Assembly: GCA_040384565.1 (NCBI GenBank)
Contig: JAZKJC010000003.1
Span: 87,195-151,194 of the forward strand
Direction: 5' to 3'
Length of the DNA stretch: 64,000 nucleotides
Origin: Patescibacteria group bacterium
GTDB taxonomy: Bacteria; Patescibacteriota; Saccharimonadia; Saccharimonadales; JAZKJC01
This document shows, piece by piece, positions 3,674-64,000 of this stretch (position 1 is its first letter; each line of letters opens with the position of its first letter). The translations under genes were made by a program, and so were the position numbers. The notes under the pieces are model-generated. The model made no database searches and was not told the origin of the DNA. It was given only the letters and a program-made list of their open reading frames with translations.

Positions 3674-3724
3674 ATTGATCCTTTCGCGAGTGGTAGCGAG
3701 CAGATCTAAGAAACAGTCTAGAGC

Positions 3725-3757
3725 AATAATACCCAGGCTAATCGCCTGGGTATTATT
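3725..3757. other. Perfect 14-bp stem / 5-nt loop hairpin upstream of tnpA (IS200-end-like)
   Basis: AATAATACCCAGGC-taatc-GCCTGGGTATTATT. Confidence 0.7.
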
Positions 3758-3840
3758 CTGTTGGCTCGCAAAGGTCAAACCGATTCAAGTCACACTAGTA
3801 GAACTAGTGGCTTCCCGATGGGGTAGTGAATTCTTATCCA

Positions 3841-4455
3841 TTAGCGGTCAGCTAGTTCGTGCTTAATTTCTGACAACATATCGCGGTGCTCTTCGTAATC
3901 CGCCACGAACTGCAGGTAGCTCTCACTGCTATTAAACATCTCTAAGATTCGTTGCGGATGAAGCCAGACAGGTGCGTTGCCACGCTTGTAATAGGTGAGG
4001 CTGGAGTAAGGGTATGTTTTCCAGGAACGTGGGTTTAGATGAATATATCTACTGATATGTTCTAGGTAAGCCTGCGTATCAATTCTTGATGCCTTATAGC
4101 GGTTTTCGAACAAGGAGCCACTTCTCTTATACTTGAGATTAAAATAACGGCTGTAGCTAGTCATTATGCCACGCATCAGAGCTGTTAGGCCTCCTTGTTC
4201 TGCCTGGTACACCAAGATATGGAAATGGTTAGGCATAAGGCAGTAGGCAAGAACTTGAATTGACTTTTTAAAGTTGGGGTAAGCAATTCCCTGTTTGCTG
4301 ATGGTTGTTTTATCTGACAAGTATCTCTCAAATAGTTTTAGGAAATATGTGTAGTCCTTTGGCTCCAAAAAGATTGGCTGTTTGCTGGCTCCCCTGGCAT
4401 AGACATGGTAATAGGACTCTCCAGTATCTAACCTGATTGTATTGCGTGATGGCAT
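3841..4455 (-). CDS. REP-associated tyrosine transposase (RAYT)-like Y1/HUH protein
   Basis: YHVYARG.., LMPNHFHILV (HUH) and LFENRYKAS (Tyr motif) are present. Length is 204 aa. Confidence 0.8.
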   Translation of the reverse strand: MPSRNTIRLDTGESYYHVYARGASKQPIFLEPKDYTYFLKLFERYLSDKTTISKQGIAYPNFKKSIQVLAYCLMPNHFHILVYQAEQGGLTALMRGIMTSYSRYFNLKYKRSGSLFENRYKASRIDTQAYLEHISRYIHLNPRSWKTYPYSSLTYYKRGNAPVWLHPQRILEMFNSSESYLQFVADYEEHRDMLSEIKHELADR

Positions 4456-13600: not shown

Positions 13601-16600
13601 TGATAATAAGCAAAAAGTATCGTTGCTGGTAATAATAGGGACATCGACTATACGGTTGGCAGCCTGATTAAGACTGCGAATACTCAAAGTTTGGCCACTG
13701 CCATCATGCAGAGCCAATGAACCTTGTAACGCCGCTGTACCAACAGTGGCAGTGGCACCCTGAACTGCTAAGGTACCGGCAATGGTAGTATTGCCACCGG
13801 ACGTCACGTCAAAGTTGGTGAAGTCTATGACTGCCGTGGTGCCTTGCAACGTCTGGGCAGCCAAATCAATACCCCCACCAGCGACAATCTGGTTATTGAA
13901 CGTCTTAACACCAGCAAACGCCTGAGCACCAGTGGTAACAGCACCGGCTTCGGTGGCAGAAGCATTGCCAATAGCTAATGTAATATCATCTGGGTTTGTT
14001 ACAACGTTCAAAGTCCAAGTGACAGACGCCGACGTACCAGTGGCAGCCGTACTGAGGAAATTAGCCCCCGTTGCTCCAGTTCCGTTAACAGACACATCGT
14101 CACCCGTGCCGGTACCGTCAGTGGCACAGATCCAGGTGTTGCCAGTGGTTTCGTACTTCAGGACTTCGCCGTTAGCACAATCAATTAGAGATAGGCCATT
14201 GCCGTCAACTTCCAGACCTTTGCTGGCTTGGAGTGTCAGGGCGATGTCATTAGCATTCGCTACAATACCGCCATTGGCCGAAGCCACGTTTAGGGTTAGT
14301 ACTCCAACTGTACCACCGCCTGTTAAGCCGGAGCCAGCCGTGACACCAGTGGTGGCATGGCTAGCGACATTGCCGCTGGTCACAACCGTGCCGCCCTCAT
14401 TCAAGGTAAATGTCTGATCAGCCGCCAGATCGGCAACATCCAGAATGGCGTAGAAAGCACCGGACGATTCACGAATCTTCAGCTCTGAGCTGGAGTTATC
14501 CAGAGTAATATCAAAGGCACCACTTTGCAGCCAGTCAGCCGTCAGGTTACTAAGCGCAATCGTCGGCGTACCGCCTTCAGTGTTAGAGGTTCCAGATATA
14601 CCGTTCCCGGCGGTAATTGTGGCTACATAATTGCCATTTGTATCTGTACCAAGATCAATCGTGCCGACACTGACCACCCCGGAGCCGTCGACTTCCAGAA
14701 AGCCGTTTGTGAGGCTTGAGAAAGTGGCAGTACCGCCGACAGTTATGCCGCCGGTGCCTTGGAGGAGTCCTGAGCCGGCATTAACGCCAACTGCCGTGAC
14801 TGCACCGGCACTACTGACATCAAAGTTGGTAAAGTCAATGACAGCCGTGGTACCTTGCAGAGTTTGAGAACCTAAGCTAATACCCCCACCAGCGACGATT
14901 TGGTTGTTGAAAGTCTTAACGCCGGCAAATGTCTGGGCGCCAGTGGTGACAGCTCCTGCCTCAGTGGCCGAGGCGTTACCAATAGCTAGGCTAATGTCAT
15001 CTGGCGTAGAGGCTCCGACGAGCGTCCAGGTAGTGGCCGTAGAAGTACCGGTCGCGGCCACGTTGAGGAAGTTAGCATCATCTGCAGCTGTGCTGTTGAC
15101 GCTAATGTTATCGCCTGAACCGCCACCGTTATCGGCAGCGCAGGCCCATTGGTTGGAGCCGTTATATTTAAGGACCTCGCCACTACTACAATCAATCAAT
15201 GACAAGCCGCTGCCGTCGACTTCCAGGCCTTTGTTGGCTTGGATTGTTAACGTTATGTCATCAGCATTTACAACGATTCCACCATTACCGGAAGCAACCG
15301 TCAGCGTCGCGTTACCGGAAGCTGCGCCGCCAGTTAGACCAGCTCCGGCAGTAACATCAGTGATCACACCGCTGACTTCGCCTTCTGTAATGCCGCCGTC
15401 TAAGACCTCTAGTTCGACGCTTGTGAGTGTTGCACCTGAGGTAATGATACTGTTGGCACCAATGCTTAAATTACTCGTTAACGTCAGGCCGGCAAACTGC
15501 GGCGTTGCGGCTGTGCTGATGCCTTGTATTGTATTTATAACACCACTTGCTGCTGAGAAGTTCGTGGCGTTGAAGGCGGCAATACCTTTAGTTGTGCCGT
15601 CTGCCGCCGCATCATCAATGGTAATAACGTTACTGGAACCCGTGGCGTTATTGATAGTCACAGCCGGGCCAGTTTGACCGTCAATACTTGTCAGACCGCC
15701 ACCGCCACCACCGCCTAAACAGGCATCCCAGAACAGCGTGCCTGAGCCATCTTGGGCCTTGAGACATTGGTTAGCGCTACCAACGGCACCGGGCAATAGT
15801 AGTGAATAGCTGGTACTCACATCAGGCAGATTCAAAGTAATAGTCTCTCCGTCACCGTCGTGCAATACAATCGATGCGCCTTGGGTAATCGTACCGAGTG
15901 TGGCACTGCCGCCTTGAACGATGATGTCAACACTTGTGGTTACATTAGTGCCATCATCAGAAATAGTCGAATCGACGATATTATTACCGCCTACCCCGAA
16001 TTTACTCAGTTGGTTTTGGGTACCGCTACCGGTGATACCGCCGCCGGCGCCGGCGCAGTTGCCACTATCCAAACAGATTGTGCCGGTACCGGTCGTGTAA
16101 TTAGGCAAGGTGTAGGTTCGGTCAGCTGTCAGGTCACCGACGTCTAGCGTGCCGTAGAAGGCCCCAGATGATTCCCTAATAGATAATTCACTGGCGGCGT
16201 TATCCAGCACGATGTCAAAGGCGCCAGTCTGGGTCCAGTTAGCCGTCAGATTACTGAGGCCCAGCGCCGCCGTCCAGCCCTCACCGGGCGTCCCCGTAAC
16301 TGCAATACCGTTGCCGCCGGTGGTGCTGGCCTGATAGTTCCCAGCCGTTTCAGTCCCCAGATCAACTTCCGTACCAAAATTGTTGGTCACGGTGATGCTG
16401 CCGCTGGCGTTACTGATAGTGATCCCCGCCCCTTGGGTAAGAGTCGCTAGGGTATAGCCCGTTCCATTACCGATAAGCAACTGGCCATTGGCGGCAGCAG
16501 AACCATTCACACCAGTCCCGCCATTACCAACCGGCAGGATACCGGTGACTTCGGCACTGGCCAGATCGACGCTTGTACCAAGTGTGGTTTGCAATGAGCC

Positions 16601-49419: not shown

Positions 49420-49920
49420 CTATTGCTTAACCGGAGCTGTAGTTCCCGCCCCCACAGTCGCACTACTAGTAGCTTCCACCACTTTCTTGGTGGATGGCCT
49501 ATATAGTATGGCACGGACGGATTTGTCTGGGGAGACATATAGCAGCACTACGTCGCCGTTCTGAGCGTTTTTGAAAAAAGCGTTTTCTGTTGCCAGCTTT
49601 TTAGCGTCTTTGACAGGTATAAGGCTGGGCGTTAAATCTGTTGGTAGCTCTACAACCTTGCCAATCTCTTCCTGATACTTCAGAGCGTCAGTTTGGCCAT
49701 CGGATGATTGGCTGGTAAATTGTTTTTGGACTTCTTCTTTGAGCTTGTTCCGATCATTAAGTAGAAAAATAAAGCCAAGTATTACTGCTAAAGCAACTGC
49801 GGCCATTATTACTGTGTTTTTGGAAAGTCCATGTATACGAGGCACAACTAGGCTAGGCTCAGCAGCAGCGACCTGCTGCTTGGACTGGTCGATTGGGACT
49901 TGGATTCGTACTCGCGCCAT
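49420..49920 (-). CDS. Small single-pass membrane protein immediately downstream of giant gene 2
   Basis: ORF track. TM is VIMAAVALAVILGFIFLL. It starts 27 nt after the giant gene stop. Confidence 0.6.
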   Translation of the reverse strand: MARVRIQVPIDQSKQQVAAAEPSLVVPRIHGLSKNTVIMAAVALAVILGFIFLLNDRNKLKEEVQKQFTSQSSDGQTDALKYQEEIGKVVELPTDLTPSLIPVKDAKKLATENAFFKNAQNGDVVLLYVSPDKSVRAILYRPSTKKVVEATSSATVGAGTTAPVKQ

Positions 49921-49947: not shown

Positions 49948-52900
49948 TCATTGTTGGACGAAGGTGTTGGGGTTATTTACGCTTATAGCGGTCCAGGTGA
50001 ATTGCAAGTCCTGGGTAGCGGGTTGCGCCAGAACTATATCGAAGCCAGTGGCAGTTACATTATTGTGACTATACTGGGCAAATTTGCCGCCGCCAAGCGC
50101 CAAGGTTATGATTGGAGGCTGGCCATACGGTTTGCTAAATGAAACGTGAACAGAGCTGGCTCCTGATTTAATTACGGCGTAACCACCGGTGTTGTTGTTG
50201 AATGAAGCATTGCCATTAAAGACTACATCCTCATTAAATACGGCTGGTTTAGCAAAGGTTACAAGGCCACCGAATATGCTATCGCCGCTAAATTGCGCCT
50301 GGCCATTTACCAATAATGAGCCGTTAATTAGGGCGTTCAAGTCTGCCGTAATGTTGCCGACATGCAAGTTGTTTAAATCAATAGCGCCGTTTTGGTTGAC
50401 TTGAGTTTGCAAGCTGTTGATTTGGTTCTGGAGCTGAGCGTAAGAATCCGCGTCGCCACCAAAGTAGCTTGAACCAACCATTACCAGCACCTCACCCTGG
50501 CCTGCTCCACCGTAAGACGTAACGGCTGTACCGATGATAGGGCCAGCGCCACTGGCTTTGGTGGCTACGCCGGGCGTAATGGAAGATGTCAGTGGGTCGC
50601 CAACAGCGACTGGACCTTGAACCTTGACCGATACGCGTCCAGCTGAAGCCACGTTCACCGTACCTTCGCTATCGGCCTGACTGGTATCAGCTACAACCCC
50701 TACCAAGCCCTTCTGGAATGACGCCGAAGATTTGCGCAATAAGCCTTGTTCGTCAGCACTTACAACATCACCTGCACTGACCGGCTCTGCCACCCTGTAA
50801 GGTGTTGCTACATAATTGGTGATAATGCTGCTTACATCAATGGTTTCAGCGTGTATATTAACCAGTTGGTCTTCGGTTATAGTATCAACTTTCGCGGAAA
50901 GCTCTTGGATGGCAGATGCCAAGATGCCAGTGAATGATTGATAATCAATTCCAAGATAATCACCTACCCCGTAACGCTCGCTTACAAGCTCAGGCAAGAG
51001 TTCTTGGACTTCCTGGGCTATAAAGCCATAATGGATTCCAGTATTATTATCATCGTGTGCTACCTCTGAATATAGATCATTAAATGTATAGCTCACAGCA
51101 CGTAGTTGATTAACTGTATCGAGTGCACTGCTTATAGTGTTAACGTCCTGTTTTAAGCGCGCATCAGATATACCAGCGTCGGCCGCACAATTCCAGACAG
51201 AACTGGCGTCAACCCATTTGAGAATTTCATTATTAGCACAGCCTTGGAGCAAACCAATGCCACCTGTACCAGCTTCGAGCCCAGAGCCATTGCTTATAGC
51301 ACCCGCGCCATCACCCGCGATAAAGTCGTTTTGGTCGACCAGTGCCGCGTCTTTGCCATCAAGACGGTTAAACTCTGTGGCATTGACATTCACCGCGTTA
51401 ATCACAAAAGCAGTTGAGGCGTTGCCAGTCAATGTAACCGTATCGAGCGCTGAGCCCACACTAATAGTATCGGCAGTGGTGTTGTTGGTGCCTATTTGTA
51501 TGGTATTGCCAGATGTGCCCAGACCAAGCTGGATGGTCTTTACGCCATTGCCCGAACCAAGCGTGATGCTCTCTGCTGACGTGTCAGTCCCAATAGCAAT
51601 AGTGCCGGTCGTACCGGAATCAATGGTAAGGTTTGTACCTGCGGCTGATGATACTGTGACCGCGCCAAGGCCGGTATAACTCTGGCCAGCTGCTACGGAG
51701 ACTCCGGCGTCACTGGTGAGGCTATCAGCATTTAAGGCGTCCTGTATATCCACGTTACCGGCCGCATTGATAGCTAGCGTGGCTTGGGTAGAAGTAATCC
51801 CCCCATTGGCGGCTACCGCGCCTGTGAATGTGCCGCCAGCACCGGTGAATATCGTGCTACCAGCAGTGCCTATCGTCCCGGTAGTGGTAATGGTGTCAGT
51901 GCCGACGTTTATACTACCGAAGTTAGCGGTGATTGAGCCAGCGTCTAACGCGCCCGTGCCAATAATGGCTGTCGTCACGGCGTCATCTGCATCCAATAGT
52001 GCGGCGGTTTTGCCATCAAGACGATTAAGTTCAGTCGCGTCAATTGTGTTGCCACCCAGGACAATCGTAGAACTGGCGCTACCTGTTAAGGCCAGTGTTC
52101 CGGTGCCATTTCCAATAGTCGTATTCGCAGTGCCGCTGTTATTGATTTGGGCGGTGCCAGTTATAGTTATACCGTTAGTCCCCTGTATCAAACCAGCACC
52201 GGCGTTCAGTCCAGCACTTGTCAGGGCACCGGCGACTGCTACCGTACCACTGCTGTTACCAAGGTTAAGCATTGTGGCCGCACCGCCAATCCGAAGCGTA
52301 GTTACAGTGGTGTTTAGCAGGTCGAAACTGGCCAATGAGCTATCGATGTTATTCTCGTTATAATAAGTTGTCCCGTTCCCTGTGGCAACACCGCTAATGA
52401 AGTAACCGCGGCCATAGCGATTCGTCAGGGTTTCAGCAGTATTAGTGGCACCGATTTCCGGGACGTGGTACTCGTTTACCGTTGAAGTATTCGCCCAAAC
52501 CAAAGCCGGGGTAATTGTTAAAGTATTGGTTGCCTTGGCCGTGATCTTGGCATAACAGATATCAACCGTACCACTACAGTCAGTACTATTGACTTGCACA
52601 TAATTCCCGACGTCAAAGCTGGCAGCGCTTGTCAGGGTTAAGCTGGTAGATGGTATGACAGCGGCACCGTTAGCTGTTGACGTGCCATCCAGGGCCGTGA
52701 AAACACTAGTTATATCACCGCTCGTATTCACGCTGAATTTGTTGCTCGCGGCCGTAAGCGTGGTACTGAATGTACCGCTAGCTCCCGTGAAAGCCGTGCT
52801 GCCGGCAGTACCTATCGTCCCGGTGGTAGTAATTGTATCGGACCCTACGTCTATGCCGCCAAAGTTAGACGTTATGCTGCCGGCATCTAATGCTCCAGTG

Positions 52901-55900
52901 CCTGTAATTCCCGTATAACTGCCAGATATATGACTCGTCCCTAACACGCCGGCAACCTCAGCCGTAGCCAGGTCAACAGCGGTAGTGGTGCTACCGGAGC
53001 CAACGAACAGGCTGGCGGTTAGGGTGTCACTGACATCAGCGTCGGTAATGCTGGCACAGGTCAGGTTGCCACTAGCGGCAATGGCGTTAGCGAACTGGTT
53101 AGCACTACAGTCGGTGGGGTTGGCGGCTAGAGCTGTGGCCGAGGTAGCCAGGGCGGCCAGGTCAATCGTGATGTTGTTGGGGATGTCAGCGTCAGTGATG
53201 GCGGCACAGCTTAGGTTGCCGTTCGCGGCAATGACGTTAGCGAACTGGTTGGCGGCACAATCGGTGGGGTTAGCCGCCAGGGCGCTGGCAGTAGAGGCGT
53301 TGCCGGTTAAGGCACCACTGAAGGTAGTGGCCGTAATAGTGCCGTCTAGGGTTAGGTTAGTGACGAATGAACCATTGGTATTAGTGAAGTCGATGGTGAT
53401 GTTGGCGGCACCGAGGTCAGCCGGGCCGCTTTGCAGGTTCGTAGCCCGTAAGTTGCCGGCTACTTCGGCAGTCGCCAGGTCAACGGCGTCAGTAGTGCTT
53501 CCTGGGCCCGCAAAAATACTTGCCGTAAGGCTATTAGAGACATCCGCATCAGTTATGCTGGCGCAAGTCAGGTCTCCATTTGCGGCAATTGCATTGGCAT
53601 ACTGGTTAGCCGAACAGTCAGTGGGGTTAGCGGCAAGTGCCGTGGCGGTAGTGGCGTTGCCACTTAGGGTACCGCTGAATGTAGCGGCTGTAATACTCCC
53701 GTCCAGGGTGAGGTTAGTAACGAATGATCCGTTAGTGTTACTAAGGTCTATTGTAACGTTAGCCGCGCCAAGGTCAGCAGCAGCACTTTGCAAGTTTGTA
53801 GCCCTTAAGTTACCTGCTACCTCAGCCGTGGCCAAGTCAATGGAATCTGTAGTGGAGCCGGAACCGACGAAGAGGCTTGATGTTAGGGTGTTCGAAACAT
53901 CAGCGTCAGTAATGCCGGCGCACGTGAGATTGCCATTAGCCGCTATGGCGTTGGCAAATTGGTTGGCGGCACAGTCGGTTGGGTTTGCGGCTAGGGCGCT
54001 GGCTGTGCTGGAGTTGCCGGTTAAGGCACCGATAAAAGTGGTGGCGGTAATAGTACCGTCAGTTGTTATATTCGTATTAAAGGAACCATTGCTGTTGCTG
54101 AAGTTAACCGTAACGTCAGCCGCGCCCAGGTCCGCAGCAGCACTTTGTAAATTGTTAGCCCGCAAATTGCCGCTTACTTCGGCGCTAGCTAAATCTACAG
54201 CATTGCTGGTGCTGCCGGAGCCAACAAGGTTAACCGCGGTAGTCGCATTGGCGGCGAGGTCGATAGTGATGCTGTTTGGTATGTCGCCATCTGTTAGGGC
54301 AGCACATGTCAGATTGCCGTTAGCGGCAATGACGTTTGCGAACTGGTTGGCGGCACAGTCGGTTGGGTTTGCGGCTAGAGCGGAGGCTGTTGATGCGTTA
54401 CCACTCAGGGCGCCACTGAAGGTCGCAGCGGTTATAGTCCCGTCTATGGTCAGATTAGTCACGAACGAACCATTGGTATTACCAAGGTCAATAGTCACGT
54501 TGGCGGCACCCAGATCCATTGCGCTGTTCTGCAAATTGCTGGCGCGGAGGTTGCCGGCTACCTCAGCCGTACCGAGGTCAACAGCATTAGTAGTGCTGCC
54601 AGAGCCAATTAGGTTGGTGGCATTTGTCGCGTTTGTCGCATTGGTTGCATTGGTTGCATTGGTTGCATTGGTTGCATTATCAATGGTGATGGAATTCGGA
54701 ACGTCCGCGTCTGTGATAGCAGCACACGTCAGGTTTCCGTTGGCAGCAATAGCCGTCGCGAACTGGTTAGCAGCACAATCTGTTGGGTTGGCAGCTAGAG
54801 ACGTCGCGCTCGCGGCAAGGTCAACAGTGATGTTGTTAGGGACATCAGCGTCGGTCAGGCCAGCACAGGTTAAATCACCATTGGCAGCAATGGTAGTTGC
54901 AAACTGGTTAGCAGCACAATCATTAGGGTTACCGGCCAAGGCAGACGCAGTGGAAGCATTCCCTGTTAATGCCCCGACAAATGTGGCGGCGGTTAGTGTG
55001 CCGTCTATTGTCAGATTAGTTACAAATGCTCCGTTAGTATTGCTCAAGTCAATGTTTACATTAGCGGCGCCAAGGTCAGTGCCGGCGCTCTGAAGATTGA
55101 CCGCGCGCAATGTCCCTGCCACTTCAGCTGTCGCGAGATCTACGGCATTAGTCGTACTACCACTTCCTACTAGATTGGTTGCGTTCGTGGCATTTGTCGC
55201 GTTATTAATTGTGATTGAATCAGGCACATCGGCGTCGGTGATGCTTGCGCATGTTAAGTTACCGTTCGCGGCTATGGTGGTTGCGAACTGGTTGGCCGAA
55301 CAATCGGTTGGGTTACCAGCAAGCGCGCTAGCAGTAGTAGCGTTACCAGTCAAAGACCCTACAAAAGTTGCGGCTGTAACCGTACCATCGAGTGTCAGGT
55401 TAGTTACAAATGAACCGTTTGTGTTGGTAAGATCTATACTGACATTTGCCGCGCCAAGATCGGTACCAGCGCTCTGCAAGTTAGTGGCCTTAAGGTTACC
55501 GGCGACTTCGGCGGTGGCCAGGTCTACAGCGTTACTGGTACTACCGGAGCCGATAAGGTTCGTGGCATTTGTAGCGTTAGTTATGGTAATGCTGTCTGGA
55601 ACATCCGCGTCAGTTATCGTGGCACAGGTGAGGTTACCATTGGCGACAATGGCGTTGGCGAACTGGTTGGCCGAACAGTCGGTGGGGTTGGCTGCGAGCG
55701 CGCTCGCCGTAGCGGCCAGATCAATCGTTATAGAGTTGGGGATATCCGCGTCAGCAAGAGCAGCACATGTCAGATTGCCATTAGCTACGATGGTGGTGGC
55801 AAATTGGTTTGAGCTACAATCTGTCGGGTTAGCTGCCAAAGCGCTTGCCGTTGAAGCGTTTCCTGTTAATACACCGATAAAAGTTGCTGCTGTAATTGTA

Positions 55901-58900
55901 CCGTCTAAGGTCAGGTTGGTAACAAAGCTGCCGTTAGTGTTGCTCAGGTCAATAGTCACATCGGCTGCGCCGAGGTCAGCGGCGGCAGATTGCAGATTGC
56001 TAGCCCGCAAATTACCTGCGACTTCCGCGGTAGCCAGGTCGATAGCACTACCAAGCTTCGTCACGTTGGCACTTAAAGCACCGTCCGCTACTGAACCGCT
56101 GGCTGAAACGCTGAGCGCGTCAGTTACCTCACTATCAGCCCAGGCGAAGCCCAGAGTACCACTATTGGTAAGTTCATCTTTGGTGATTGTCGCACCAAGC
56201 TTGGTGACGTTTGCGCTAAGGGCGCCATCCGCAACCGTACTGCTCGCCCCTACAGTAAGCGTATCTGGTATATCGGCGTCTGTGAGCGCAGCACAGGTCA
56301 GGTCTCCATTAGCAGCAATTGCGTTGGCGAACTGGTTGGCGGCACAATCGGCTGGGTTAGCGGCAAGCGCAGTTGCTGTCGTGGCATTACCCGAGAATGA
56401 CCCTGAGAATGAAGCGGCTGTAACCACGCCATCAATGATGAGATTCGTGACAAAACTGCCATTGGTATTGCTTAAGTTGATAGTCACGTTCGCAGCCCCC
56501 AGATCAGCGCCAGCATTCTGCAAATTCGTAGCCCTAAGGTTACCGGTCACTTCACTCGTCCCCACATCTATGCTGGTTCCTAGCTTAGTAACATTGCTAC
56601 TGAGCGCGGCATCATTCACCGAGCCGGAAGCACCGATAGTGATCGTATCGGATATTTCGCTATCGGACCAAGTAAAGCCTAAAGTGCCGCCACTTGATAA
56701 TTCATCCTTGCTGATACTTGAGCCAAGAAGACTAACGTTGGCGCTTAACGCCCCGTCCGCCACCGAACCGCTAGCTGAAATAGTGATACCGTCCGGTACA
56801 TCCGCATCGGTAAGTGCCGCGCAAGTGAGATTCCCGTTAGCTACGATGGCAGTAGCGAATTGGTTTACCGCGCAGTCGGTAGGATTTGCGGCAAGCGCGC
56901 TGGCGGTCGTGGCATTACCCGATAAAGCACCGCTGAAAGTGTTAGCCGTAATGGTACCATCAAGTGTTAAGTTCGTAACAAACGAGCCGTTGGAATTACT
57001 GAGGTCAACGGTAATATTCGCCGCTCCAAGGTCAGCGGCGACAGATTGCAGATTGGTAGCCAGGAGATTGCCGGAGACTTCAGCTGTTGCCAAATCAACC
57101 GCAGTTGTAGTGCTGCCGGAGCCAACGAACAGGCTAGCAGTTAGGGTGTCACTGACATCGGCGTCGGTAATGCTGGCGCAGGTTAGGTTCCCGTTGGCGG
57201 CAATTGCATTGGCATACTGGTTAGCACTACAGTCAGTTGGGTTAGCGGCTAAGGCGGTGGCAGTAGCGGCAAGGTCAATAGTAATGGAGTTTGGTATGTC
57301 AGCGTCAGTGATGGCGGCACAAGTCAGGTTGCCGTTGGCGGCAATGACGTTGGCAAACTGATTGGCGGCACAATCTGTGGGGTTGGCAGCTAGGGCGCTG
57401 GCCGTTGAGGCGTTGCCGGTTAAGGCACCGCTGAGGGTAGTGGCGGTAATGGTACCATCTAAGGTTAAGTTAGTTACGAATGAGCCATTAGTGTTGGTGA
57501 AGTCTATGTTAACATTGGCGGCACCCAGGTCAGCTGGGCCACTTTGCAAGTTAGTGGCCCGAAGGTTGCCTGCCACTTCAGCCGTGGCCAGGTCAACGGC
57601 GCCAGTGGTGCTGCCACTACCGACAAGGTTAGTAGCGGTGGTAGCTAGGGTGGCTAGATCGATGGTGATGTTGTTAGGGACGTCAGCGTCAGTGATGGCC
57701 ACGCAGGTCAGGTTGCCACTAGCGGCTATGGCATTGGCGAACTGGTTGGCACTACAGTCCGTGGGGTTGGCAGCTAGGGCTGTGGCAGTCGTCGCGTTGC
57801 CGGTTAAGGCACCAATGAAGGTGGCGGCTGTGATGCTGCCATCTAGAGTCAGGTTAGTAACGAAGGCTCCGTTAGTGTTGCTAAGGTCTACGGTAACGTC
57901 AGCGGCACCTAGGTCTGAGCCGGCATTTTGCAAGTTAATGGCCCGGAGGTTGCCGGCTACTTCCGCCGTGGCCAGGTCAATGGCGGTAGTCGTGCTACCT
58001 GAGCCGACGAACAGGCTGGCGGTCAGGGTGTCAGAGACATTGGCATCATTTATAGCCGTACCATTCCATACACCGACGGTGATAGTACCACCAGACACAC
58101 TAAGGCCGTTAACTGCGCTTGAACTTAGGGAACCGCCAGATATAGTTGCAGTGTTAATGGTGCCGGTAGTAATCAGCGTACCTGCCACGCTTGCGCCACT
58201 GGCGGTAACATCAAAGTATGAGGAAGTACCGCCGCTGTTCTGGACGGCAAATAGTGAAGTACCGAGCGGTGTAGAATTATCCCGTATAAGTAAGCTGCCG
58301 TCAGCACCATTCAGATTGACGATGACATTACTGCCGTCGACATCGTTATCGTATACGTTTTGGAGAGTCGGCGCTGAACCAGTGCCGTTATCGGCGGCAC
58401 AAGCCCATTGGTTAGACCCATTATATTTCATTATTTCGCCGGCGGTACAATCGATCAGCGACAGGCCATTTACATCAACCTCTAGGCCCTTATTAGCTTG
58501 CAGGCTGAGCGTAATGCTGTCAGCGACTACAGAGATACCATTGCCCGCCCCTACTGCCAAACTGGCGGCTATGCCCTCGCCGCTGGCATCCCCTGTCAGA
58601 CCGTTGCCGGCAGTTATACTCTGGATATAATTTCCGGTAGTGTCAGTCCCTAGAACAACACTGTCTACGCCGACATTAAGACCGCCGCTGAAAGAGCCGG
58701 TTATGTCACCCGCTGCTGGTGATTCTCCGACGTTTACGTAAATACTGTCTAGTGTTGTAAAGTAGTTCGCATTAGTCAGAACCGTGCCAGTCGCACCACT
58801 AAATGTATAGGTTGCCGGCGCCCCGGGAGTAGCAAACGTAAGTGTTACATCATTGGTGCCTTTTTCTAGCTTAACGTCACCATTCTCAAGAATACGTATA

Positions 58901-61900
58901 ACTTCGCTGCCAGCGGTATTAAAGATTATGTCGTCTGCTCCGGCAGTCGCAGTTGTCCCTATAGTAATAGCGCCGGCGTTTTGCAGCGTTGGTGTCGTAA
59001 CCGAGCCAGTAAAGCTTGGGGAGTTAGTAATAGAAATACTGCCGCAGTTTGTACCAGTTGTACCTATCGTGACCGTCGCGCCACCACCGCTTAAGTTGCC
59101 GGTTCCACTGGCACAAGTAAATGTATTTGCGCCAGCGGCCGCATTGTTGGCACTGGAGCCATAAAGTACGCTCAAGGTTGGAACTGAACCTTCACCGCTG
59201 TTTCCAGTGGTTGAGAGACCGGTGAGGGTACCTAGATTGGCTACGTAGTCGCCGGTGGTGTCAGTTGTTAACGCAACACTGTTAGCCCCGACATTAAGGC
59301 CAGCACTAAAGCTGCCGGTGATGTCTCCGGCTGCTGGAGACTCACCGACATTGACGTAGATGCTGTCGGTGGTAGCGGTGTAGTTGCCCGTAGTCAGGAT
59401 GGTGCCTGTGGCACCTGATAGGGTGTAAGTGGCTGGGGCACCGGAAGGCGTACTTACCGCCAAGGTTACATCGTTTGTGCCCTTTTCGAAGAGTAGGTTA
59501 CCACTTTCCAGGATGCGAACCTTTTCCGTTCCAGCGGTTTCAAAGATGATGTCATCACTACCAGCGGTGGCCGTGGTGCTGATTATCATAAAGCCAGTGT
59601 TCTGCAGTAGCGGAGTTGTGACGCTGGTACTGAAGGCTACGGCATTATTAGTCGTTAGGTTATTACAGCTGCCGCCTGTACCCAGGGTGATGGTGTTACC
59701 ACCACCGCTTAAGTTGCCCGTGCCACTGGCGCAGGTGATAGTGGTGTTACCTTGGACGGCAGTATTGGCAGCGGAACCGTAGGCTACGGCCAGGCTGGTT
59801 GAGCTGCCTAATGCAACACTGCCACCACCGGACAAGCCGTTTCCGGCACTGACAGTTATAGATGAATTCTGAAGAGCGCCGTTAGCAAGCGTTGTTGTCC
59901 CGGCAGCCGTTAGTCGACCCTGGGCGTCGACTGTAAAGGTGGGAACAGCCGTAGTTGATCCATAAGAATTGGCCGTAACTGAGGTATCAGCCAGGTTAAG
60001 CGTCGCACTGCCACCCAGGCTAATGGCTCCGCCGCCAGACAAACCAGTACCAGCGCTAACTGTCACTGCGCTGTTTACTAAGTCCCCATTTGTCACCGTG
60101 CCATTTACTATCTTGCTGCCGTTAACACTATCAGCTTCCAGCTCACCTAAACCAATAGTTTGGCCTAGCAAAGTGACATTGGCGCTGAGGCGCAGGTCAT
60201 TTAATGTCCCACTGCTTACGTTACCGGCATTAAGGCCAGTCAGGGCGCTACCATCACCGCTGAAGGCTCCGCCAATGATTGTGCCCGTCACATTAATATG
60301 GCCAGCCTGGGGAGTACCAGGAGTAGCAGGCTGCAGTGAAACGCAGCCGGAACAGCTATTAAGGCCTGTGATCGCTACATTGGCCGCGCCAGTAATCCGA
60401 CCTTGCTGGTCCACGGTAAATTGGCCAACTTGCGTAGCTGAGCCATAGTTTCCTGCCGTAACAGCGGTATCTGCCAGATTCAATGTCGCGCTGCCACCCA
60501 GGCTAATGGCTCCGCCGCCGGACAAACCGGTACCACCGCTAACAGTCAGTGAACTGTTCTGCAATTTAGCGTTGGTAACATTGCCATCGGCAATCTTAAC
60601 AGTCGTAACAGCGTTATTGGCTATTGTGCCCATACCACTGGCATTAACCGTCAAATCACCACCCAATGCCTGCGTGACCCAGCTTGTACCATTACCAATC
60701 AGTAAATTACCGCTGGTAGGCGTGGTGGTGCCAAGTGAGCTGCCATTAATTTTACTGACAGTTGGGTTAGGATAGCTACCGCTCAAGTCGCCACCTGCTG
60801 TTCCACCCGGAGCAACGCCACTAATAACGGTATTTGTTACGTTTGTTATCCTGCCCTTGGCATCCACGGTGAATACCGGCACTTCCGTGCTGCTGCCATA
60901 AGTGTTAGCAGAGACACCTGAGTTTGCCAACGTCAATAAGCCGGAAGCAGCTAACAACGCGTCACCAGAGAGGCTTACAAAGCCCGGTACGCCACTACCA
61001 TTCGCAACCAGCAGTTGCCCAGTTGTACCAGCGGTCGTTGCCTGGACAGCTCCGGTACCATTGCCATACAACACACCATTACTGGCAAGAGTTGACACGC
61101 CTATACCACCGTACTGTACGCCAATAGTGGAGCCTTGCCAGACGCCACTGGTAAGCGTCCCGACACTGGTAATGTCAGTAAGGTTACCAGTGGTAATAAG
61201 CATGCCGTTAACATTAGGCACCGTAAGTGTACGCGTAGTCCCAACATCTACGCCCGCAACATTAAACATTGCTTTCTTGGTATTGTCGGTACTGTCCTGC
61301 AATGTAAAGCTATTGTTATTGAAACTCCAGTTACCACTGATAACTTCAGCATTCGTGCGCCGCGTGATACCTGAATTCGTGTAATCAAGCCCTATGTTAG
61401 CCCGTCCAGCTGGCGTCTCGGTGACAGTGAAATCATTGTTGGCGTAGTTAAGAGTATTAATAGTATTAGATATGGTTACGCCGCCCTGCTGCATGGTTAG
61501 CGCGCCGGCATTGAGGTCAGTGGCGCACTCCCACAGGCTCGTGCCACTATTCCACTTAAGTATCTGGTTACCCGCACAGCCGCCGATAAGGCGTAGGCCG
61601 TCCGTACCCAGTTCCAGTCCGGAGTTAGAATTAACAGTTCCCGTTGTGCCGGTAGTAGCAACATCCAGGGCTATAGAAGTGGCTGCATTTTCCGAACCCG
61701 AACCTGTAACCGTAAGGCCAGTTCCCCCGGTAAGGGTTGCTACGTAATTTCCCGCTGTGTCTATGCCCAGGACAACGCTGTCAGCACCTATGGCCGTGAC
61801 GCCGCTACTATTGACTGTAACATCGCCTGTCATAACCTGGCTAACCCAACTTGTACCATTGCCAACCAGCAGCGCTCCGCTACTTGCGTTTGTACTACCT

Positions 61901-64000
61901 AGCGATACTCCATTAATACGGGCTACCGTTGGATTGGGATACGATCCGCTTAAGTCACCACCCGCTATTCCACCTGGTGTTACACCGCTAATAGTCGTAT
62001 TGGTTACCACAGTAACTCGGCCTTTAGCATCTACCCCAAAGACCGGTACTTGGGTAGCGCTACCATACGTTGCCGCAACAACACCTGAATTTGCCAATGT
62101 AAAGGTTCCGGTTGAGCCTAAGGTCGCATCGCCAGATAACGTTGTAAATGTTGGTACATTGGTGGCATTAGCAAGGAGTAATTGACCACCACTTCCAGGT
62201 GTTGTAGCTTGCACAGCACTAGTTCCGTTGCCGTATAAAACGCCGTTGGCCGTTAGAGATGTAGTCCCAGTGCCGCCGTATTGGACCGCGACAGTCGAGC
62301 CCTGCCAGACCCCACTCGTCAGGGTGCCAACGGCTGTTATATCCGTCAGGTTACCTGTCGTAACAAGGGTACCGTTAGTATTCGGAGCCGTAAATACCCT
62401 TGTTGTACCCGCGGTAATACCGGAAAGTTCAAAAACTATTTTCTTAGTTGAGTCGGCATTATCCTGAAGCGTGAAGCCAGCATCAGTGAAATTCCAATTT
62501 CCACTAATAATTTCGTTGGCGCTGCGGCGCGTAATGCCAGAAGTAGCATAATTGATAGCCAGATTAACTGCCGCGTTTTCCGTGCCAGATCCGGAAACCG
62601 TAAAGTCCGAGCTGCCAGTCAGGCTGGAGACATAATTGCCTGTCGTGTCTGTCCCAAGAGCCACAGAGTTTGGCGCAACGCTTAGGCCACCAGAGAAACT
62701 TCCTGTAATATCACCCACCGCTGGGGACTGATTTTCGTTCACATATATAGAATCAAGCGTCGCCGCGTAATTGGTTGTCTGCAAAACATTATTGCCAAGC
62801 CCTATCCTGACCTGGCCACCACCCAGTGATGTAACTATAAATTCATCTGATGAGCTTACCGCGGGCCCAAATTGTATATTCGTGGCACTCATGACAACCA
62901 CGCTGCCATCTGAAGACTGTACGTTCACAGCACTACCACCGGCATCCGCATTACAGATCCAGGCACTGCCATTCCATTTTAGAATCTGGCCACTGGAACA
63001 GCCGCCTACTAGACGCAGCCCCTGGCTACTTGTCTCCAGCCCGGAGGCTGAACTTGTTGTCGTAGTGCTACCACTGGCTGCGACCCTTACTTCAACCTTG
63101 TTTGAAAGTACCTCGGTACTAACCCCTGTTTGGACACCAAGGCTTACGCTGCCGCTTGAACCGCCGCCGAACAAACCAAGCCCGGCGCTAACTTCATCTA
63201 TATCGCCGGATGGACTATTAGTATTATTGGTACTGGTATTCGAGGTTGGTGGCTGGCTGACATATGTGGTCCCTCCGCCTCCACCAGCCCCCCTAAGGGC
63301 CATAATAGTACTTACCGACAAGTTATTCAGCTGGATGGCACCGTCGCCAATCTGAGTACCCGTAATAGACTTATCTTTAATTTGCTTGCCTGTTAATGGC
63401 AATACGGCCAAGTTGCCGTCTTTATCACCCGGTTCACGGCCTTGGACAAACTGGCTGTTAAGATTAGCAACCAAACCTTGGTCAGGAATGTTTATATATG
63501 ATGAGTCAGGCACGCTAAGTACATATTTACTTTCGATATTGCCGTCTTTATCAGGTGCAAATATATCGTTGACATCTTTTATAGCGTCATTTGGTTTGAT
63601 GTTGGCAGCCAGATCTGGATTAACAATACCCGCGACACTAAGCGCGGAGTTAGTAACAGGACGTAATATCCGGGCAAATATACTTGGTGATTTGGGCTCT
63701 ATATAGTGTCTGCCTAAGTGATTAGCGGGTGTATAACCAAAAATATTCGCCATTGCGCCTGGCGCGGTCAGGAATAGGCCGGCGCAGGACACTATTAAAG
63801 CAGCTAGCAATACCGCCGAGCCAATAGTCGCACGCTGCCAGACTGGCAACCTAAGGAACCACCCAGGAGTAGGTAGTTGCACTTTGGGTACTTGCCAGTG
63901 AGGGCGAGGCGTAGAAGCCTGGTGTTGAGGGGCGTTTACGATACTTGGAGTAGAAGCTACTTCCGCTGCCGCAATAGGTATGTCTAAAGCTATAGTAGGA
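49948..64000 (-). CDS. Giant (at least 4,644 aa) membrane-anchored tail-fibre-like surface protein; the 5' end is possibly outside the window
   Basis: The ORF track starts at GTG 63882. By hand, the same frame stays open to 64000 (..[47 protein letters not shown]..). TM is [19 protein letters not shown]. Fibre motifs are [15 protein letters not shown], [19 protein letters not shown] and GLRLxGGCxxxQILKWNxxxxWxC. It also has a ~1,700-aa tandem array, a Peptidase_S74 motif, a G2-like barrel and an H-lectin-like end. Confidence 0.9.
   Translation of the reverse strand, partial: [4683 protein letters not shown]
50870..51168 (-). other. Peptidase_S74-type intramolecular chaperone / autocleavage domain inside giant gene 2
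   Basis: [11 protein letters not shown] (Ser codon 51168-51166), ..[10 protein letters not shown].., ..[17 protein letters not shown].., ..[22 protein letters not shown]. Confidence 0.8.
52950..58045 (-). repeat. Coding tandem array (~5.1 kb; units ~350-560 nt; 15 Cys-loop copies)
   Basis: The repeating module is [110 protein letters not shown]... I counted 15 ANPxDC..LTC loops in the translation. Confidence 0.85.
54616..54678 (-). repeat. 9-nt microsatellite encoding (Asn-Ala-Thr)x7 inside the array
   Basis: The plus strand has GGTTGCATT four times perfectly (54643-54678) plus three degenerate units. It translates as [28 protein letters not shown]. Paralogous units carry only (NAT)2 or (NAT)3. 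Confidence 0.85.

What the first reader, a model, noticed from the sequence alone, without database searches (positions are those of the whole stretch)
49948..51168. S74 intramolecular-chaperone motif is internal: ~300 aa of folded domains follow it
In tail fibres and endosialidases the Peptidase_S74 chaperone domain is the extreme C-terminus and is released by cleavage at the Ser of S-D-x-R-x-K. Here GI-SDARLKQDV..GFIAQEV..AIQEL is unmistakable (51168-50870). It is followed by a G2-like barrel (~50800-50455), a QLQNQINSLQTQVNQ coiled segment, beta repeats and an H-type-lectin-like end (..VHVSFSKPYGQPPIITLAL..VTATGFDIVLAQ..LQFTWTAI, ~50180-49951). If self-cleavage occurs, a 406-aa lectin-tipped fragment would be shed or remain non-covalently attached. 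If it does not occur, the chaperone has been converted into a structural joint. I am not aware that either case has been described.
Basis: partly seen in the sequence, partly recalled or inferred. Interest (0 to 1): 0.75.

Follow-up and report, generated by a model that had tools for sequence, protein, structure and literature searches.

The report
Self-cleaving chaperone inside giant bacterial fibre
A giant cell-surface fibre protein of an ultrasmall (Patescibacteria) bacterium carries a phage-type self-cutting folding domain about 400 residues before its end, followed by a lectin-like knob; this layout recurs across the group and implies that a lectin-tipped piece is cut off the fibre after assembly.

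Summary
The ORF 49948..>64000 (-) encodes at least 4,644 aa. Residues 4239-4334 are a clear Peptidase_S74 domain (64 bits against a cut-off of 22) with the S-D-x-R-x-K motif intact. After it come 310 aa: a barrel related to the phi29 gp12 (Peptidase_G2) auto-chaperone that has lost its cleavage-site Asp, a short coiled coil, beta repeats, and an H-type-lectin-fold knob.

The context is not a phage. It is a Patescibacteria (Saccharibacteria-like) chromosome, and the protein is an N-terminally anchored giant surface fibre.

The layout is recurrent. The tail module occurs in about 2,800 protein clusters. About three quarters of tail-bearing proteins have a putative self-cleaving module in front of it, either S74 or a barrel with an intact D-[LYF]-A-E motif. 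Where S74 is present, the barrel motif is almost always degenerate.

Ser, Asp, Arg and Lys are invariant in 12 diverged S74-plus-tail homologues, which argues for real cleavage at I4238|S4239. Whether the 406-aa cap is then shed or retained cannot be decided here.

Eukaryotic MYRF is a described precedent for an internal S74 domain. I therefore rate this a new variant of a known kind, of moderate to high interest.

The parts
49948..64000 (-). Giant fibre gene ('giant1'). At least 4,644 aa and open at the window edge. Hydrophobic anchor or signal segment at aa 20-38 (window 63769-63825).
   Evidence: The juxtamembrane region is shared with homologues that carry N-terminal MerR HTH domains followed by a TM helix.
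51187..51243 (-). Cys-pair element GCANNEILKWVDASSVWNC directly upstream of the cleavage Ser. It is the third copy of a C..ILKW..W.C motif in the protein.
   Evidence: Both Cys residues are invariant in the 12-sequence alignment A2. The other copies are at aa 769 and 1812.
50881..51168 (-). Peptidase_S74 / ICA intramolecular chaperone domain, aa 4239-4334.
   Evidence: Pfam 64.4 bits against a cut-off of 22. phmmer hits to phage S16 gp37 (6f45) and the MyRF ICA domain (7dc3). Foldseek hit to 7dc3 at E 2.2e-4.
51151..51168 (-). Catalytic motif S4239-D-A-R-L-K4244. The predicted scissile bond is I4238|S4239.
   Evidence: S, D, R and K are invariant in A2. The motif is kept in nearly all of the roughly 24 internal S74 copies. 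The position of the cut relative to the Ser is taken from MyRF (P586|S587).
50455..50817 (-). Beta-tulip-like barrel related to the G2-type (phi29 gp12 D4) auto-chaperone, aa 4356-4476.
   Evidence: 42% identity to the giant2 barrel. Family profile against PDB hits 3gqh, 6qz9 and 28nb at E 1e-4 to 7e-4. Foldseek hits phage cement proteins and 3gqh. pLDDT is 74-87.
50785..50799 (-). Degenerate cleavage motif Y-R-V-A-E. Arg sits where intact barrels have the Asp of D-[LYF]-A-E.
   Evidence: The cleaved phi29 gp12 fragment starts at this Asp (DFAEYF, 3gqh). Dpo31 D4 is traced from Asp664.
50392..50445 (-). Short coiled-coil segment SYAQLQNQINSLQTQVNQ, aa 4480-4497.
   Evidence: Helix in the AF2 model at model residues 270-288. 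It is lengthened in homologues P0123 and P0132.
50191..50382 (-). Beta-strand repeats (x-F-x-G type), aa 4501-4564. Presumed trimeric beta-helix.
   Evidence: Conserved F/G/V columns in A2. The monomer model is of low confidence here. That this stretch forms a trimeric beta-helix is inferred.
49978..50190 (-). C-terminal H-type-lectin-fold knob, aa 4565-4635.
   Evidence: Pfam H_lectin 22.4 bits, below the cut-off of 24. Homologue P0102 scores 24.2. Foldseek hits HPA 2ccv, HAA 4q56 and SLL-2 3wmp at E 1.5e-3 to 4e-3. The sequence profile against discoidin-2 reaches only E 0.05.
49420..49920 (-). 166-aa membrane protein with a distant LytR_C-like domain. A candidate partner of the fibre's C-terminal module.
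   Evidence: Homologues lie directly downstream, on the same strand, of tail-bearing giant genes in about 41 genome loci. Four of 24 homologues hit Pfam LytR_C. AF2 model pLDDT is 75, with no PDB fold match.
4601..18760 (-). Second giant fibre gene ('giant2', 4,719 aa). It has no S74, a barrel with the intact T-A-D-L-A-E-W motif (window 5603-5623), beta repeats, and an H-lectin-like end.

Best explanation
The gene encodes a giant cell-surface fibre of a Patescibacteria (Saccharibacteria-like) bacterium. The fibre is anchored at its N-terminus and is presumably trimeric.

Its last 406 aa form a composite C-terminal assembly cap built from phage fibre parts:
- an active-looking S74 intramolecular chaperone;
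- a relic G2-type auto-chaperone barrel that has lost its cleavage Asp;
- a short coiled coil;
- beta repeats;
- an H-type-lectin-fold knob.

Proposed sequence of events: after Sec export, the three C-termini associate through this cap. The cap sets the chain register and nucleates folding of the shaft from the C-terminus towards the N-terminus. Once the trimer has formed, the Ser4239/Lys4244 dyad cuts the I4238|S4239 bond. The 406-aa, lectin-tipped trimeric cap is then no longer covalently part of the fibre and is most likely released.

Shown here: the domain identities, the intact catalytic motif, the family-wide architecture, the complementary state of the S74 and G2 motifs, and the chromosomal context.

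Inferred: trimerisation, the cleavage itself, the direction of folding, and the fate of the fragment.
For: - The S74 domain is identified at 64 bits, with S-D-x-R-x-K and GFIAQE present. The aromatic positions equivalent to MyRF Y615/Y617 are kept as Y and F.
- S, D, R and K are invariant in 12 homologues that share only 34-61% identity overall. They are kept in nearly all of the roughly 24 internal S74 copies found. That is the conservation expected of a working protease, not of a structural relic.
- The state of the barrel motif tracks the presence of S74. Barrels downstream of an S74 lack the D-[LYF]-A-E consensus in 12 of 13 cases. Barrels with no upstream cleavage module keep it in 71 of 78 cases. 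In proteins with two barrels, the first is intact and the second is often degenerate. This looks like one functional cut site per chain.
- S74 bearers fall into several terminal-domain lineages whose nearest relatives are G2-type, so the swap happened more than once.
- About 74 of 102 tail-bearing proteins with enough upstream sequence have a putative self-cleaving module in front of the tail.
- The tail is well conserved (40-70% identity across clusters, about 2,800 clusters) and sits at the extreme C-terminus. That fits an assembly role better than a hypervariable receptor tip.
- In every characterised S74 system the two cleavage products separate: endoNF and T5 pb1 from established knowledge, and MYRF from PMC8326128 and PMC3742440.
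- An N-terminal hydrophobic anchor is present, so the C-terminus is the last part exported and is distal.
Against: - There is no experimental or proteomic evidence for cleavage, and no trimer model. The monomer AF2 model is poor over the S74 region (pLDDT 45-66) and over the repeats.
- Phage S74 chaperones do their job with 100-150 aa, so the extra conserved 300 aa suggest a function beyond folding.
- A lectin-fold knob at the distal tip of a surface fibre of an epibiotic bacterium looks like an adhesin, and shedding it would seem wasteful.
- Some relatives carry two (P0144) or three (L035) internal S74 domains, each with an intact motif. If every copy cut and the pieces dissociated, the fibre would fall apart. 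This favours continued non-covalent association, or use as an in-line trimerisation node.
- The contingency counts are inflated by relatedness, because eight S74 bearers form one clade.
- About a quarter of tail-bearing proteins show no recognisable cleavage module.
Confidence: 0.5

Rival explanations
1. Cleaved but retained. S74 cuts, but the 406-aa trimer stays non-covalently docked on the fibre end. It would act as the distal adhesin, with the H-type-lectin knob binding a glycan on the host bacterium. The nick would create a mechanically weak or exchangeable joint.
For: - The knob has an H-type-lectin fold, a carbohydrate-binding fold that forms trimers.
- Patescibacteria live attached to host cells and need adhesins (PMC10633639).
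- Relatives with two or three internal S74 domains would fall to pieces unless the fragments stayed associated.
- giant2 places the same kind of knob at the tip of a similar fibre.
Against: - In the known S74 systems the products separate (plus established knowledge of endoNF and T5 pb1).
- MyRF shows almost no interface between the stalk and the ICA domain (PMC8326128).
- The knob sequence is conserved rather than variable across species that presumably have different hosts.
- The sugar-binding residues were not checked.
Confidence: 0.25
2. Non-cleaving structural joint. In this context the S74 domain acts only as an in-line trimerisation node and the chain stays intact.
For: - Multiple S74 domains occur within one polypeptide in relatives (L035 with three, P0144 with two).
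- MYRF cleavage can be held off by partner proteins (PMC7153906 and PMC12803276, abstracts), so a competent dyad does not guarantee constitutive cutting.
Against: - The Ser, Asp, Arg and Lys of the motif are the most invariant positions of the domain in 12 diverged homologues. A purely structural node would not need the nucleophile or the general base.
- The barrel's own cleavage motif decays specifically where S74 is present. That implies S74 has taken over a function the motif used to provide.
Confidence: 0.12
3. MYRF-like release. The C-terminal tail is the part that stays at the cell envelope, perhaps held by the conserved LytR_C-like membrane protein encoded next door. S74 cleavage then frees the distal end of the fibre, or the whole fibre if the N-terminal segment is a cleaved signal peptide.
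For: - A LytR_C-like membrane protein is encoded directly downstream of tail-bearing giant genes in about 41 loci.
- giant1 has an A-M-A|N site after its hydrophobic segment that could be a signal-peptidase site.
- In MYRF the piece downstream of the ICA domain is the anchored one.
Against: - There is no hydrophobic segment in the last 406 aa.
- giant2 and many homologues have a clear uncleaved N-terminal anchor preceded by a cytoplasmic region, often with HTH domains. The N-terminus is therefore the fixed end.
- No interaction between the tail and the LytR_C-like protein has been shown, and the partner's fold gave no informative match.
Confidence: 0.1

Closest known systems
MYRF (myelin regulatory factor) ICA domain, eukaryotes
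   Same: A Peptidase_S74/ICA domain lies inside the polypeptide with hundreds of residues downstream. The Ser-x4-Lys dyad is the same, and the cut falls immediately before the Ser. Cleavage depends on trimerisation. The downstream piece keeps the ICA domain (PMC8326128). Sequence and fold matches to 7dc3 were found.
   Different: MYRF is a eukaryotic ER-membrane transcription factor with the order Ndt80-type DNA-binding domain, ICA, TM helix, luminal domain. Here the ICA domain is extracellular, at the far end of a fibre of more than 4,200 aa. There is no TM helix downstream. It is followed instead by a G2-type barrel, beta repeats and a lectin-fold knob.
Phage C-terminal intramolecular chaperones of family S74 (K1F endosialidase endoNF, T5 pb1, S16 gp37)
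   Same: The domain family and motif are the same, and the domain sits at the end of a long trimeric beta-structured fibre. PHROG tail-fibre profiles match at E values down to 1e-21.
   Different: In phages the domain is the last 100-150 aa and nothing follows it. Here 310 aa of folded domains follow, and the protein is cellular rather than viral.
Peptidase_G2 auto-chaperone (phi29 gp12 domain D4; Dpo31 D4)
   Same: The barrel that follows the S74 is related by profile (E 1.4e-4 to 3gqh) and by fold. In giant2 and most family members, the D-[LYF]-A-E motif aligns with the first residues of the cleaved phi29 fragment (DFAEYF).
   Different: No Pfam PF11962 hit reaches threshold. Only the N-terminal barrel part is shared. 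In giant1 the Asp is replaced by Arg. In this family the barrel is internal, followed by 170-250 aa, whereas in phages it is terminal.
H-type lectins (Helix pomatia agglutinin, discoidin-2 C-domain, SLL-2)
   Same: The fold matches over the whole lectin (99 of 99 columns, TM-score normalised to the target 0.57). Pfam scores are close to threshold. These lectins are naturally trimeric.
   Different: Sequence identity is about 12%, and the score is below the Pfam cut-off for giant1. Sugar-binding residues were not examined. Here the domain is the terminal knob of a fibre.
Bacteroidota 'tail fiber domain-containing proteins' with S74 followed by a T9SS C-terminal sorting domain (database entries only)
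   Same: These are cellular proteins with an internal S74 and about 110 aa downstream (P0050, P0058, P0071).
   Different: The downstream piece is a secretion signal domain (PF18962), not a folded fibre tip. The proteins are small (330-400 aa).

Membership tests
Peptidase_S74 / ICA (PF13884, PROSITE PS51688) | Profile match above the curated threshold | tested here: met
   64.4 bits against a cut-off of 22, E 1.2e-17, covering profile positions 1-57 of 58.
Peptidase_S74 / ICA (PF13884, PROSITE PS51688) | Ser nucleophile and Lys general base spaced S-x4-K (endoNF S911/K916, MyRF S587/K592) | tested here: met
   S4239-D-A-R-L-K4244. It aligns to the dyad of 6f45 and 7dc3. It is invariant in alignment A2.
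Peptidase_S74 / ICA (PF13884, PROSITE PS51688) | Hydrophobic and aromatic residues around the scissile bond, and the G-x-I-A-Q-E strand | tested here: met
   V-S-Y-T-F aligns with MyRF H-Y-R-Y (Y615/Y617). GFIAQEV is present.
Peptidase_S74 / ICA (PF13884, PROSITE PS51688) | Fold of a solved ICA domain | tested here: inconclusive
   Foldseek top hit is the MyRF ICA domain 7dc3 (E 2.2e-4). However, the monomer model has pLDDT 45-66 in this region and the rmsd is 15 A.
Peptidase_S74 / ICA (PF13884, PROSITE PS51688) | Trimerisation-dependent autoproteolysis | not testable with these tools
   This needs protein expression with S4239A and K4244A controls, or mass spectrometry.
Phage tail fibre / endosialidase C-terminal chaperone (CIMCD as used in phages) | Domain is the extreme C-terminus of the polypeptide | tested here: not met
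   310 aa follow the domain.
Phage tail fibre / endosialidase C-terminal chaperone (CIMCD as used in phages) | Encoded among phage structural genes | tested here: not met
   The neighbours are IleRS, RNR, FtsZ, FtsA, PriA, deformylase, formyltransferase, IF-2, S1 and a ROK kinase. Relatives lie in Patescibacteria genomes.
Peptidase_G2 auto-chaperone (PF11962; phi29 gp12 D4) | Profile match above the curated threshold | tested here: not met
   There is no PF11962 hit for giant1 or giant2 even at E up to 10. The best family member, P0153, scores 19.6 bits against a cut-off of 25.
Peptidase_G2 auto-chaperone (PF11962; phi29 gp12 D4) | Homology to the solved auto-chaperone domains | tested here: met
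   A profile of 26 barrels hits 3gqh at E 1.4e-4, 6qz9 at 4.7e-4 and Dpo31 D4 (28nb) at 7.2e-4. Foldseek hits 3gqh at E 2.5e-3 and also 3suc. Only the N-terminal half aligns.
Peptidase_G2 auto-chaperone (PF11962; phi29 gp12 D4) | Asp at the cleavage site, as the first residue of the released domain (D-[FY]-A-E-Y-F) | tested here: not met
   giant1 has Y-R-V-A-E, with Arg in place of Asp. The feature is met in giant2 (T-A-D-L-A-E-W) and in 71 of 78 barrels that have no upstream cleavage module.
H_lectin (PF09458) | Profile match above the curated threshold | tested here: inconclusive
   giant1 scores 22.4 bits against a cut-off of 24. P0102 scores 24.2. P0002 and P0003 carry the precomputed hit. 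The PDB sequence profile reaches only E 0.05-0.7 against discoidin-2 and HPA.
H_lectin (PF09458) | H-type lectin fold | tested here: met
   Foldseek hits 2ccv, 4q56, 2ce6 and 3wmp at E 1.5e-3 to 4e-3, covering the whole target, with TM-score normalised to the target of 0.52-0.59. pLDDT in this region is 64-80.
H_lectin (PF09458) | GalNAc-binding residues at the protomer interface | not tested
   No residue-level alignment to HPA was obtained.
MYRF-type membrane-bound transcription factor | ICA domain internal to the protein, with a large downstream fragment | tested here: met
   406 aa from the Ser to the end.
MYRF-type membrane-bound transcription factor | Transmembrane helix downstream of the ICA domain and a DNA-binding domain immediately upstream of it | tested here: not met
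   There is no hydrophobic segment in aa 4239-4644. The only anchor is N-terminal. Upstream of the ICA domain lies more than 4,000 aa of fibre repeats.

The most novel reading that the evidence does not exclude
Patescibacteria build their giant surface fibres with a modular, phage-derived 'cut-here' cassette. Either of two unrelated self-cleaving chaperones (S74 or G2-type) is placed in line before a conserved lectin-fold cap, and they have replaced each other repeatedly. After assembly the cell deliberately sheds, or hands to the conserved LytR_C-like membrane partner, a roughly 130-kDa trimeric lectin particle. This would be a programmed bacterial counterpart of MYRF-type processing, and a previously unrecognised class of released lectins or assembly caps in epibiotic bacteria.
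Probability: 0.3. Interest if true: 0.75.

Novelty: new variant of a known kind. Interest (0 to 1): 0.6.

Why it matters
Self-cleaving intramolecular chaperones are textbook C-terminal devices of phage fibres. The one known exception, MYRF, turned out to be a regulatory switch.

This finding shows that ultrasmall epibiotic bacteria, whose attachment machinery is largely unknown, use the same devices inside giant cell-surface fibres, in front of a conserved lectin-fold cap. It also shows that two mechanistically different proteases (Ser-Lys S74 and Asp/Glu G2) fill the same slot. Together this gives:
- a concrete, testable processing site, I4238|S4239;
- a natural experiment on what the chaperone and the cap each contribute;
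- a candidate secreted or tip-located lectin;
- a conserved gene pair (fibre plus LytR_C-like membrane protein) to target in the genetically tractable Saccharibacteria.

Tried and rejected
- **Phage or prophage origin: rejected.** The genes between the two giant genes are housekeeping genes, there are no tRNA or Rfam hits, and relatives lie in Patescibacteria chromosomes.
- **Chance motif: rejected.** The Pfam E-value is 1e-17.
- **Assembly chimera or gene-call artefact: rejected.** The same layout occurs on independent contigs and genomes (P0001, P0102, L001, L002, L003, L008-L011, L013, L024, L028, L034, L037). A syntenic contig also carries it.
- **Pfam Peptidase_G2 on the barrel:** no hit for the window proteins. 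A family profile against PDB was needed instead.
- **Sequence profile of the terminal domain against PDB:** only weak H-lectin hits at E 0.05-0.7. The fold search carried the argument.
- **Structure model:** the AF2 monomer model of the 436-aa C-terminus has a mean pLDDT of only 55. The S74 region, the linker and the beta repeats are unreliable. No trimer prediction was possible with the tools.
- **Fold of the 166-aa neighbour:** no significant PDB match.
- **Literature:** searches found no paper linking S74/ICA domains with H-type lectins or with Patescibacteria.
- **Fisher test (p = 2e-9):** this should not be read as a probability, because many S74 bearers are one clade. My 'degenerate' class also mixes two kinds of barrel: Asp-replaced barrels and an 'I-G-Q' variant. 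A few of the latter (P0132, P0120) still have both Asp and Glu.
- **giant2 barrel:** my simple barrel HMM missed it, so I placed it by hand from the BLASTP alignment.
Full report
**What is there**

The minus-strand ORF ending at 49948 is read by the ORF lister as 4,644 aa from a GTG at 63882. The frame is still open at the window edge, so the protein is longer than that.

Pfam finds one strong domain. Peptidase_S74 matches aa 4239-4300 at 64.4 bits (cut-off 22, E 1.2e-17) on the last 556 aa. My own S74 HMM extends the domain to aa 4334. S-D-A-R-L-K lies on the catalytic Ser/Lys, and V-S-Y-T-F lies on MyRF H-Y-R-Y. In MyRF the cut is P586|S587 and S587/K592 are indispensable (PMC8326128). The predicted cut here is therefore I4238|S4239.

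**The 310 residues after the S74 domain**

An AF2 monomer model built on 12 homologues is poor overall (mean pLDDT 55). It is usable for two regions: aa 4356-4476 (pLDDT 74-87) and the last roughly 70 aa (pLDDT 64-80). Foldseek against the PDB returns three groups of hits:
- the MyRF ICA domain;
- phage capsid cement and decoration beta-tulip proteins, together with the phi29 gp12 C-terminal auto-chaperone (3gqh, 3suc);
- the H-type lectins HPA (2ccv, 99 of 99 columns), HAA and SLL-2.

A profile of 26 related barrels hits phi29 gp12 (3gqh at E 1.4e-4, 6qz9 at 4.7e-4) and the Dpo31 D4 chaperone (28nb at 7.2e-4). The conserved D-l-A-E-x-Y of the profile aligns to D-F-A-E-Y-F, which is the very first stretch of the cleaved phi29 fragment. 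Dpo31 D4 is likewise traced from an Asp (PMC13317679). Pfam H_lectin scores 22.4 bits for giant1, just under the cut-off of 24. Homologue P0102 reaches 24.2.

**Context**

The window is a cellular chromosome. Between the two giant genes lie IleRS, an asparaginase, a class II RNR, FtsZ, FtsA, methionine aminopeptidase, PriA, deformylase, formyltransferase, IF-2, S1 and a ROK kinase. No tRNA or Rfam family was found.

The small gene next to the giant ORF is 100% identical to an NCBI protein of a 'Patescibacteria group bacterium' MAG. A scan of species-representative genomes with the C-terminal alignment returns almost only Candidatus Saccharibacteria/Saccharimonadales and other Patescibacteria for matches that include the tail. 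A metagenomic contig encoding P0002 is syntenic with the window, with ROK, S1 and IF-2 in the same order.

The giant protein has an N-terminal hydrophobic segment at aa 20-38. This is a membrane-anchored surface fibre, not a virion fibre.

**A second giant gene**

The ORF at 4601..18760 (-), 4,719 aa, has no S74 domain. It ends with the same kind of module: a barrel 42% identical to that of giant1, beta repeats, and an H-lectin-like end. Its barrel starts T-A-D-L-A-E-W. The giant1 barrel starts P-Y-R-V-A-E-P, with Arg where the Asp should be.

**Family-wide pattern**

Searching the 300 aa downstream of the S74 domain against 1.84 billion cluster representatives gives 2,784 hits at E <= 1e-3 and 65 at E <= 1e-30. 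Nearly all are at the extreme C-terminus of long proteins, up to 4,863 aa.

Among the best 150 plus three earlier hits, about 24 carry an S74 domain upstream of the tail, and almost all have S-D-x-x-x-K intact. Most of the rest carry the barrel, which starts with a strongly conserved G-A-D-[LYF]-A-E-x-Y.

| Barrel context | D-[LYF]-A-E intact | D-[LYF]-A-E not met |
|---|---|---|
| S74 upstream | 1 | 12 |
| No upstream cleavage module | 71 | 7 |

Source. In two-barrel proteins the first barrel is intact and the second is often degenerate (P0104, P0110, P0115).

Two caveats apply to this table. Eight of the S74 bearers form one clade by terminal-domain similarity. The others have G2-type nearest neighbours, so there were several independent swaps but far fewer than 13 independent events. 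The 'degenerate' class also contains an 'I-G-Q' barrel variant in which a few members still have both Asp and Glu.

Of 102 tail-bearing proteins with at least 500 aa upstream of the tail, about 74 have S74 or a D-x-A-E motif in front of the tail, 13 have only a motif-less barrel, and 15 have neither.

In the 12-sequence alignment of S74-plus-tail C-termini (34-61% identity to giant1), S, D, R and K of the motif, G-x-I-A-Q and two upstream Cys residues are invariant.

**How it most likely works**

The conservation of the nucleophile and the base, and the decay of the alternative cleavage motif when S74 is present, both argue that S74 really cuts and that each chain needs one cut between shaft and tail. 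Three lines point to release:
- the cleavage products of known S74 systems separate;
- the tail is conserved rather than variable;
- the N-terminus is the anchored end, so the C-terminus emerges last from the Sec channel.

From these I favour, at about 0.5, a composite assembly cap. It would register and nucleate the trimer from the C-terminus and then be severed at I4238|S4239, releasing a trimer of 406-aa chains.

The main rival, at about 0.25, is that the nicked cap stays docked and serves as a lectin adhesin. Three observations favour it: the lectin fold, the epibiotic lifestyle, and relatives with two (P0144) or three (L035) internal S74 domains that would otherwise fragment.

A non-cleaving joint (about 0.12) and a MYRF-like arrangement in which the tail is held at the envelope (about 0.1) are less likely, for the reasons given under the rival explanations.

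None of this can be settled without protein work or a trimer model.

**Comparison with what is known**

The literature treats S74 as a C-terminal device of viral fibres (PMC11058221; PMC12220804). PHROG profiles and database statistics agree.

The internal position is not unprecedented. MYRF is the described case (PMC3742440; PMC8326128). Unpublished database entries from Bacteroidota place a T9SS sorting domain after S74.

My literature searches found four things undescribed:
- S74 inside giant cellular fibres of Patescibacteria;
- S74 followed by a G2-type barrel and an H-lectin knob;
- the apparent interchangeability of S74 and G2 modules;
- the conserved LytR_C-like neighbour gene.

I file this as a new variant of a known kind.

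**Side observations**

- A 166-aa membrane protein (49420..49920) with a distant LytR_C-like domain is encoded immediately downstream of tail-bearing giant genes in about 41 loci.
- Many homologues begin with two cytoplasmic MerR/HTH_17 domains before the TM helix. giant1 may do so too, beyond the window edge.

Noticed in passing
window 49420-49920 (-); L001-L025, L029-L032, L036, L037, L047, L050, L053, L055, L063: A 166-aa membrane protein sits directly downstream of the giant gene. It has a TM helix, a long helix and a small alpha/beta domain, and 4 of 24 homologues hit Pfam LytR_C. Homologues lie immediately downstream, on the same strand, of tail-bearing giant genes in about 41 genome loci, sometimes as two tandem copies. 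This is a conserved gene pair of unknown function.
   Followed up: partly
window 63883-64000 (-); P0104, P0106, P0110, P0112, P0115-P0117, P0120, P0125, P0156: The giant ORF is still open at the window edge. Many homologous giant proteins start with two cytoplasmic MerR/HTH_17 DNA-binding domains (E about 1e-23), then a TM helix near aa 200, then the juxtamembrane region that giant1 shares (IKDVNDIF.PD..GNI). A DNA-binding domain on the cytoplasmic end of a giant surface fibre is odd and unexplained.
   Followed up: partly
window 4601-18760 (-): A second giant ORF (4,719 aa) has an uncleaved-looking N-terminal anchor at aa 70-90 and no S74. It has a G2-type barrel with an intact T-A-D-L-A-E-W motif (window 5603-5623), followed by beta repeats and an H-lectin-like end. 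This predicts a self-cleavage site that is also internal.
   Followed up: partly
L035 5735-12376 (+); P0144: A Saccharimonadales ORF carries three internal S74 domains with the motifs SDSGLK, SDSNLK and SDIRLK. Another protein, P0144, carries two. If all of them cut, one gene would yield several trimeric fragments, in a polyprotein-like way.
   Followed up: partly
window 51187-51243 (-), and aa 769 and 1812 of the same protein: A Cys-pair element C..ILKW..W.C occurs three times in the protein. The last copy lies directly before the cleavage Ser, and its two Cys residues are invariant in homologues. It may be a disulfide-stapled end of the mature shaft.
   Followed up: no
window 3239-4455 (-): Two adjacent IS200-like Y1 transposase ORFs (Pfam Y1_Tnp, E 1e-34 and 3e-11) sit where giant2 would be expected to have its LytR_C-like neighbour gene.
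   Followed up: no
P0050, P0058, P0071 (Bacteroidota/Muribaculaceae proteins): In these small 'tail fiber domain-containing' proteins the S74 domain is followed by a T9SS C-terminal sorting domain (PF18962). This is another undescribed class with an internal S74.
   Followed up: no
window 6000-18000 and 50000-62000: Both giant genes are more GC-rich (0.50-0.55) than the housekeeping genes between them (0.41-0.49). Both also carry long spurious ORFs on the opposite strand (for example 52985-55093 and 55097-57361), which are composition artefacts of the Ala/Thr/Gly/Asn-rich repeats.
   Followed up: no
window about 52900-58000 (-), central part of giant1: There are many tandem copies of a unit of roughly 90-100 aa containing ANPTDC..NQFA..I.ANGNLTC..ITDADV, with one Cys pair per unit. 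No Pfam family covers it. The only hit is a sub-threshold WxLIP_HBD match (whole-protein 34.3 bits, but no single stretch passes).
   Followed up: no
PDB 9flp (GhpA grappling-hook protein of Aureispira): The barrel profile gives a very weak hit (E 0.85) to another giant bacterial surface fibre used in contact-dependent predation. This is probably chance and was not supported by the fold search.
   Followed up: no
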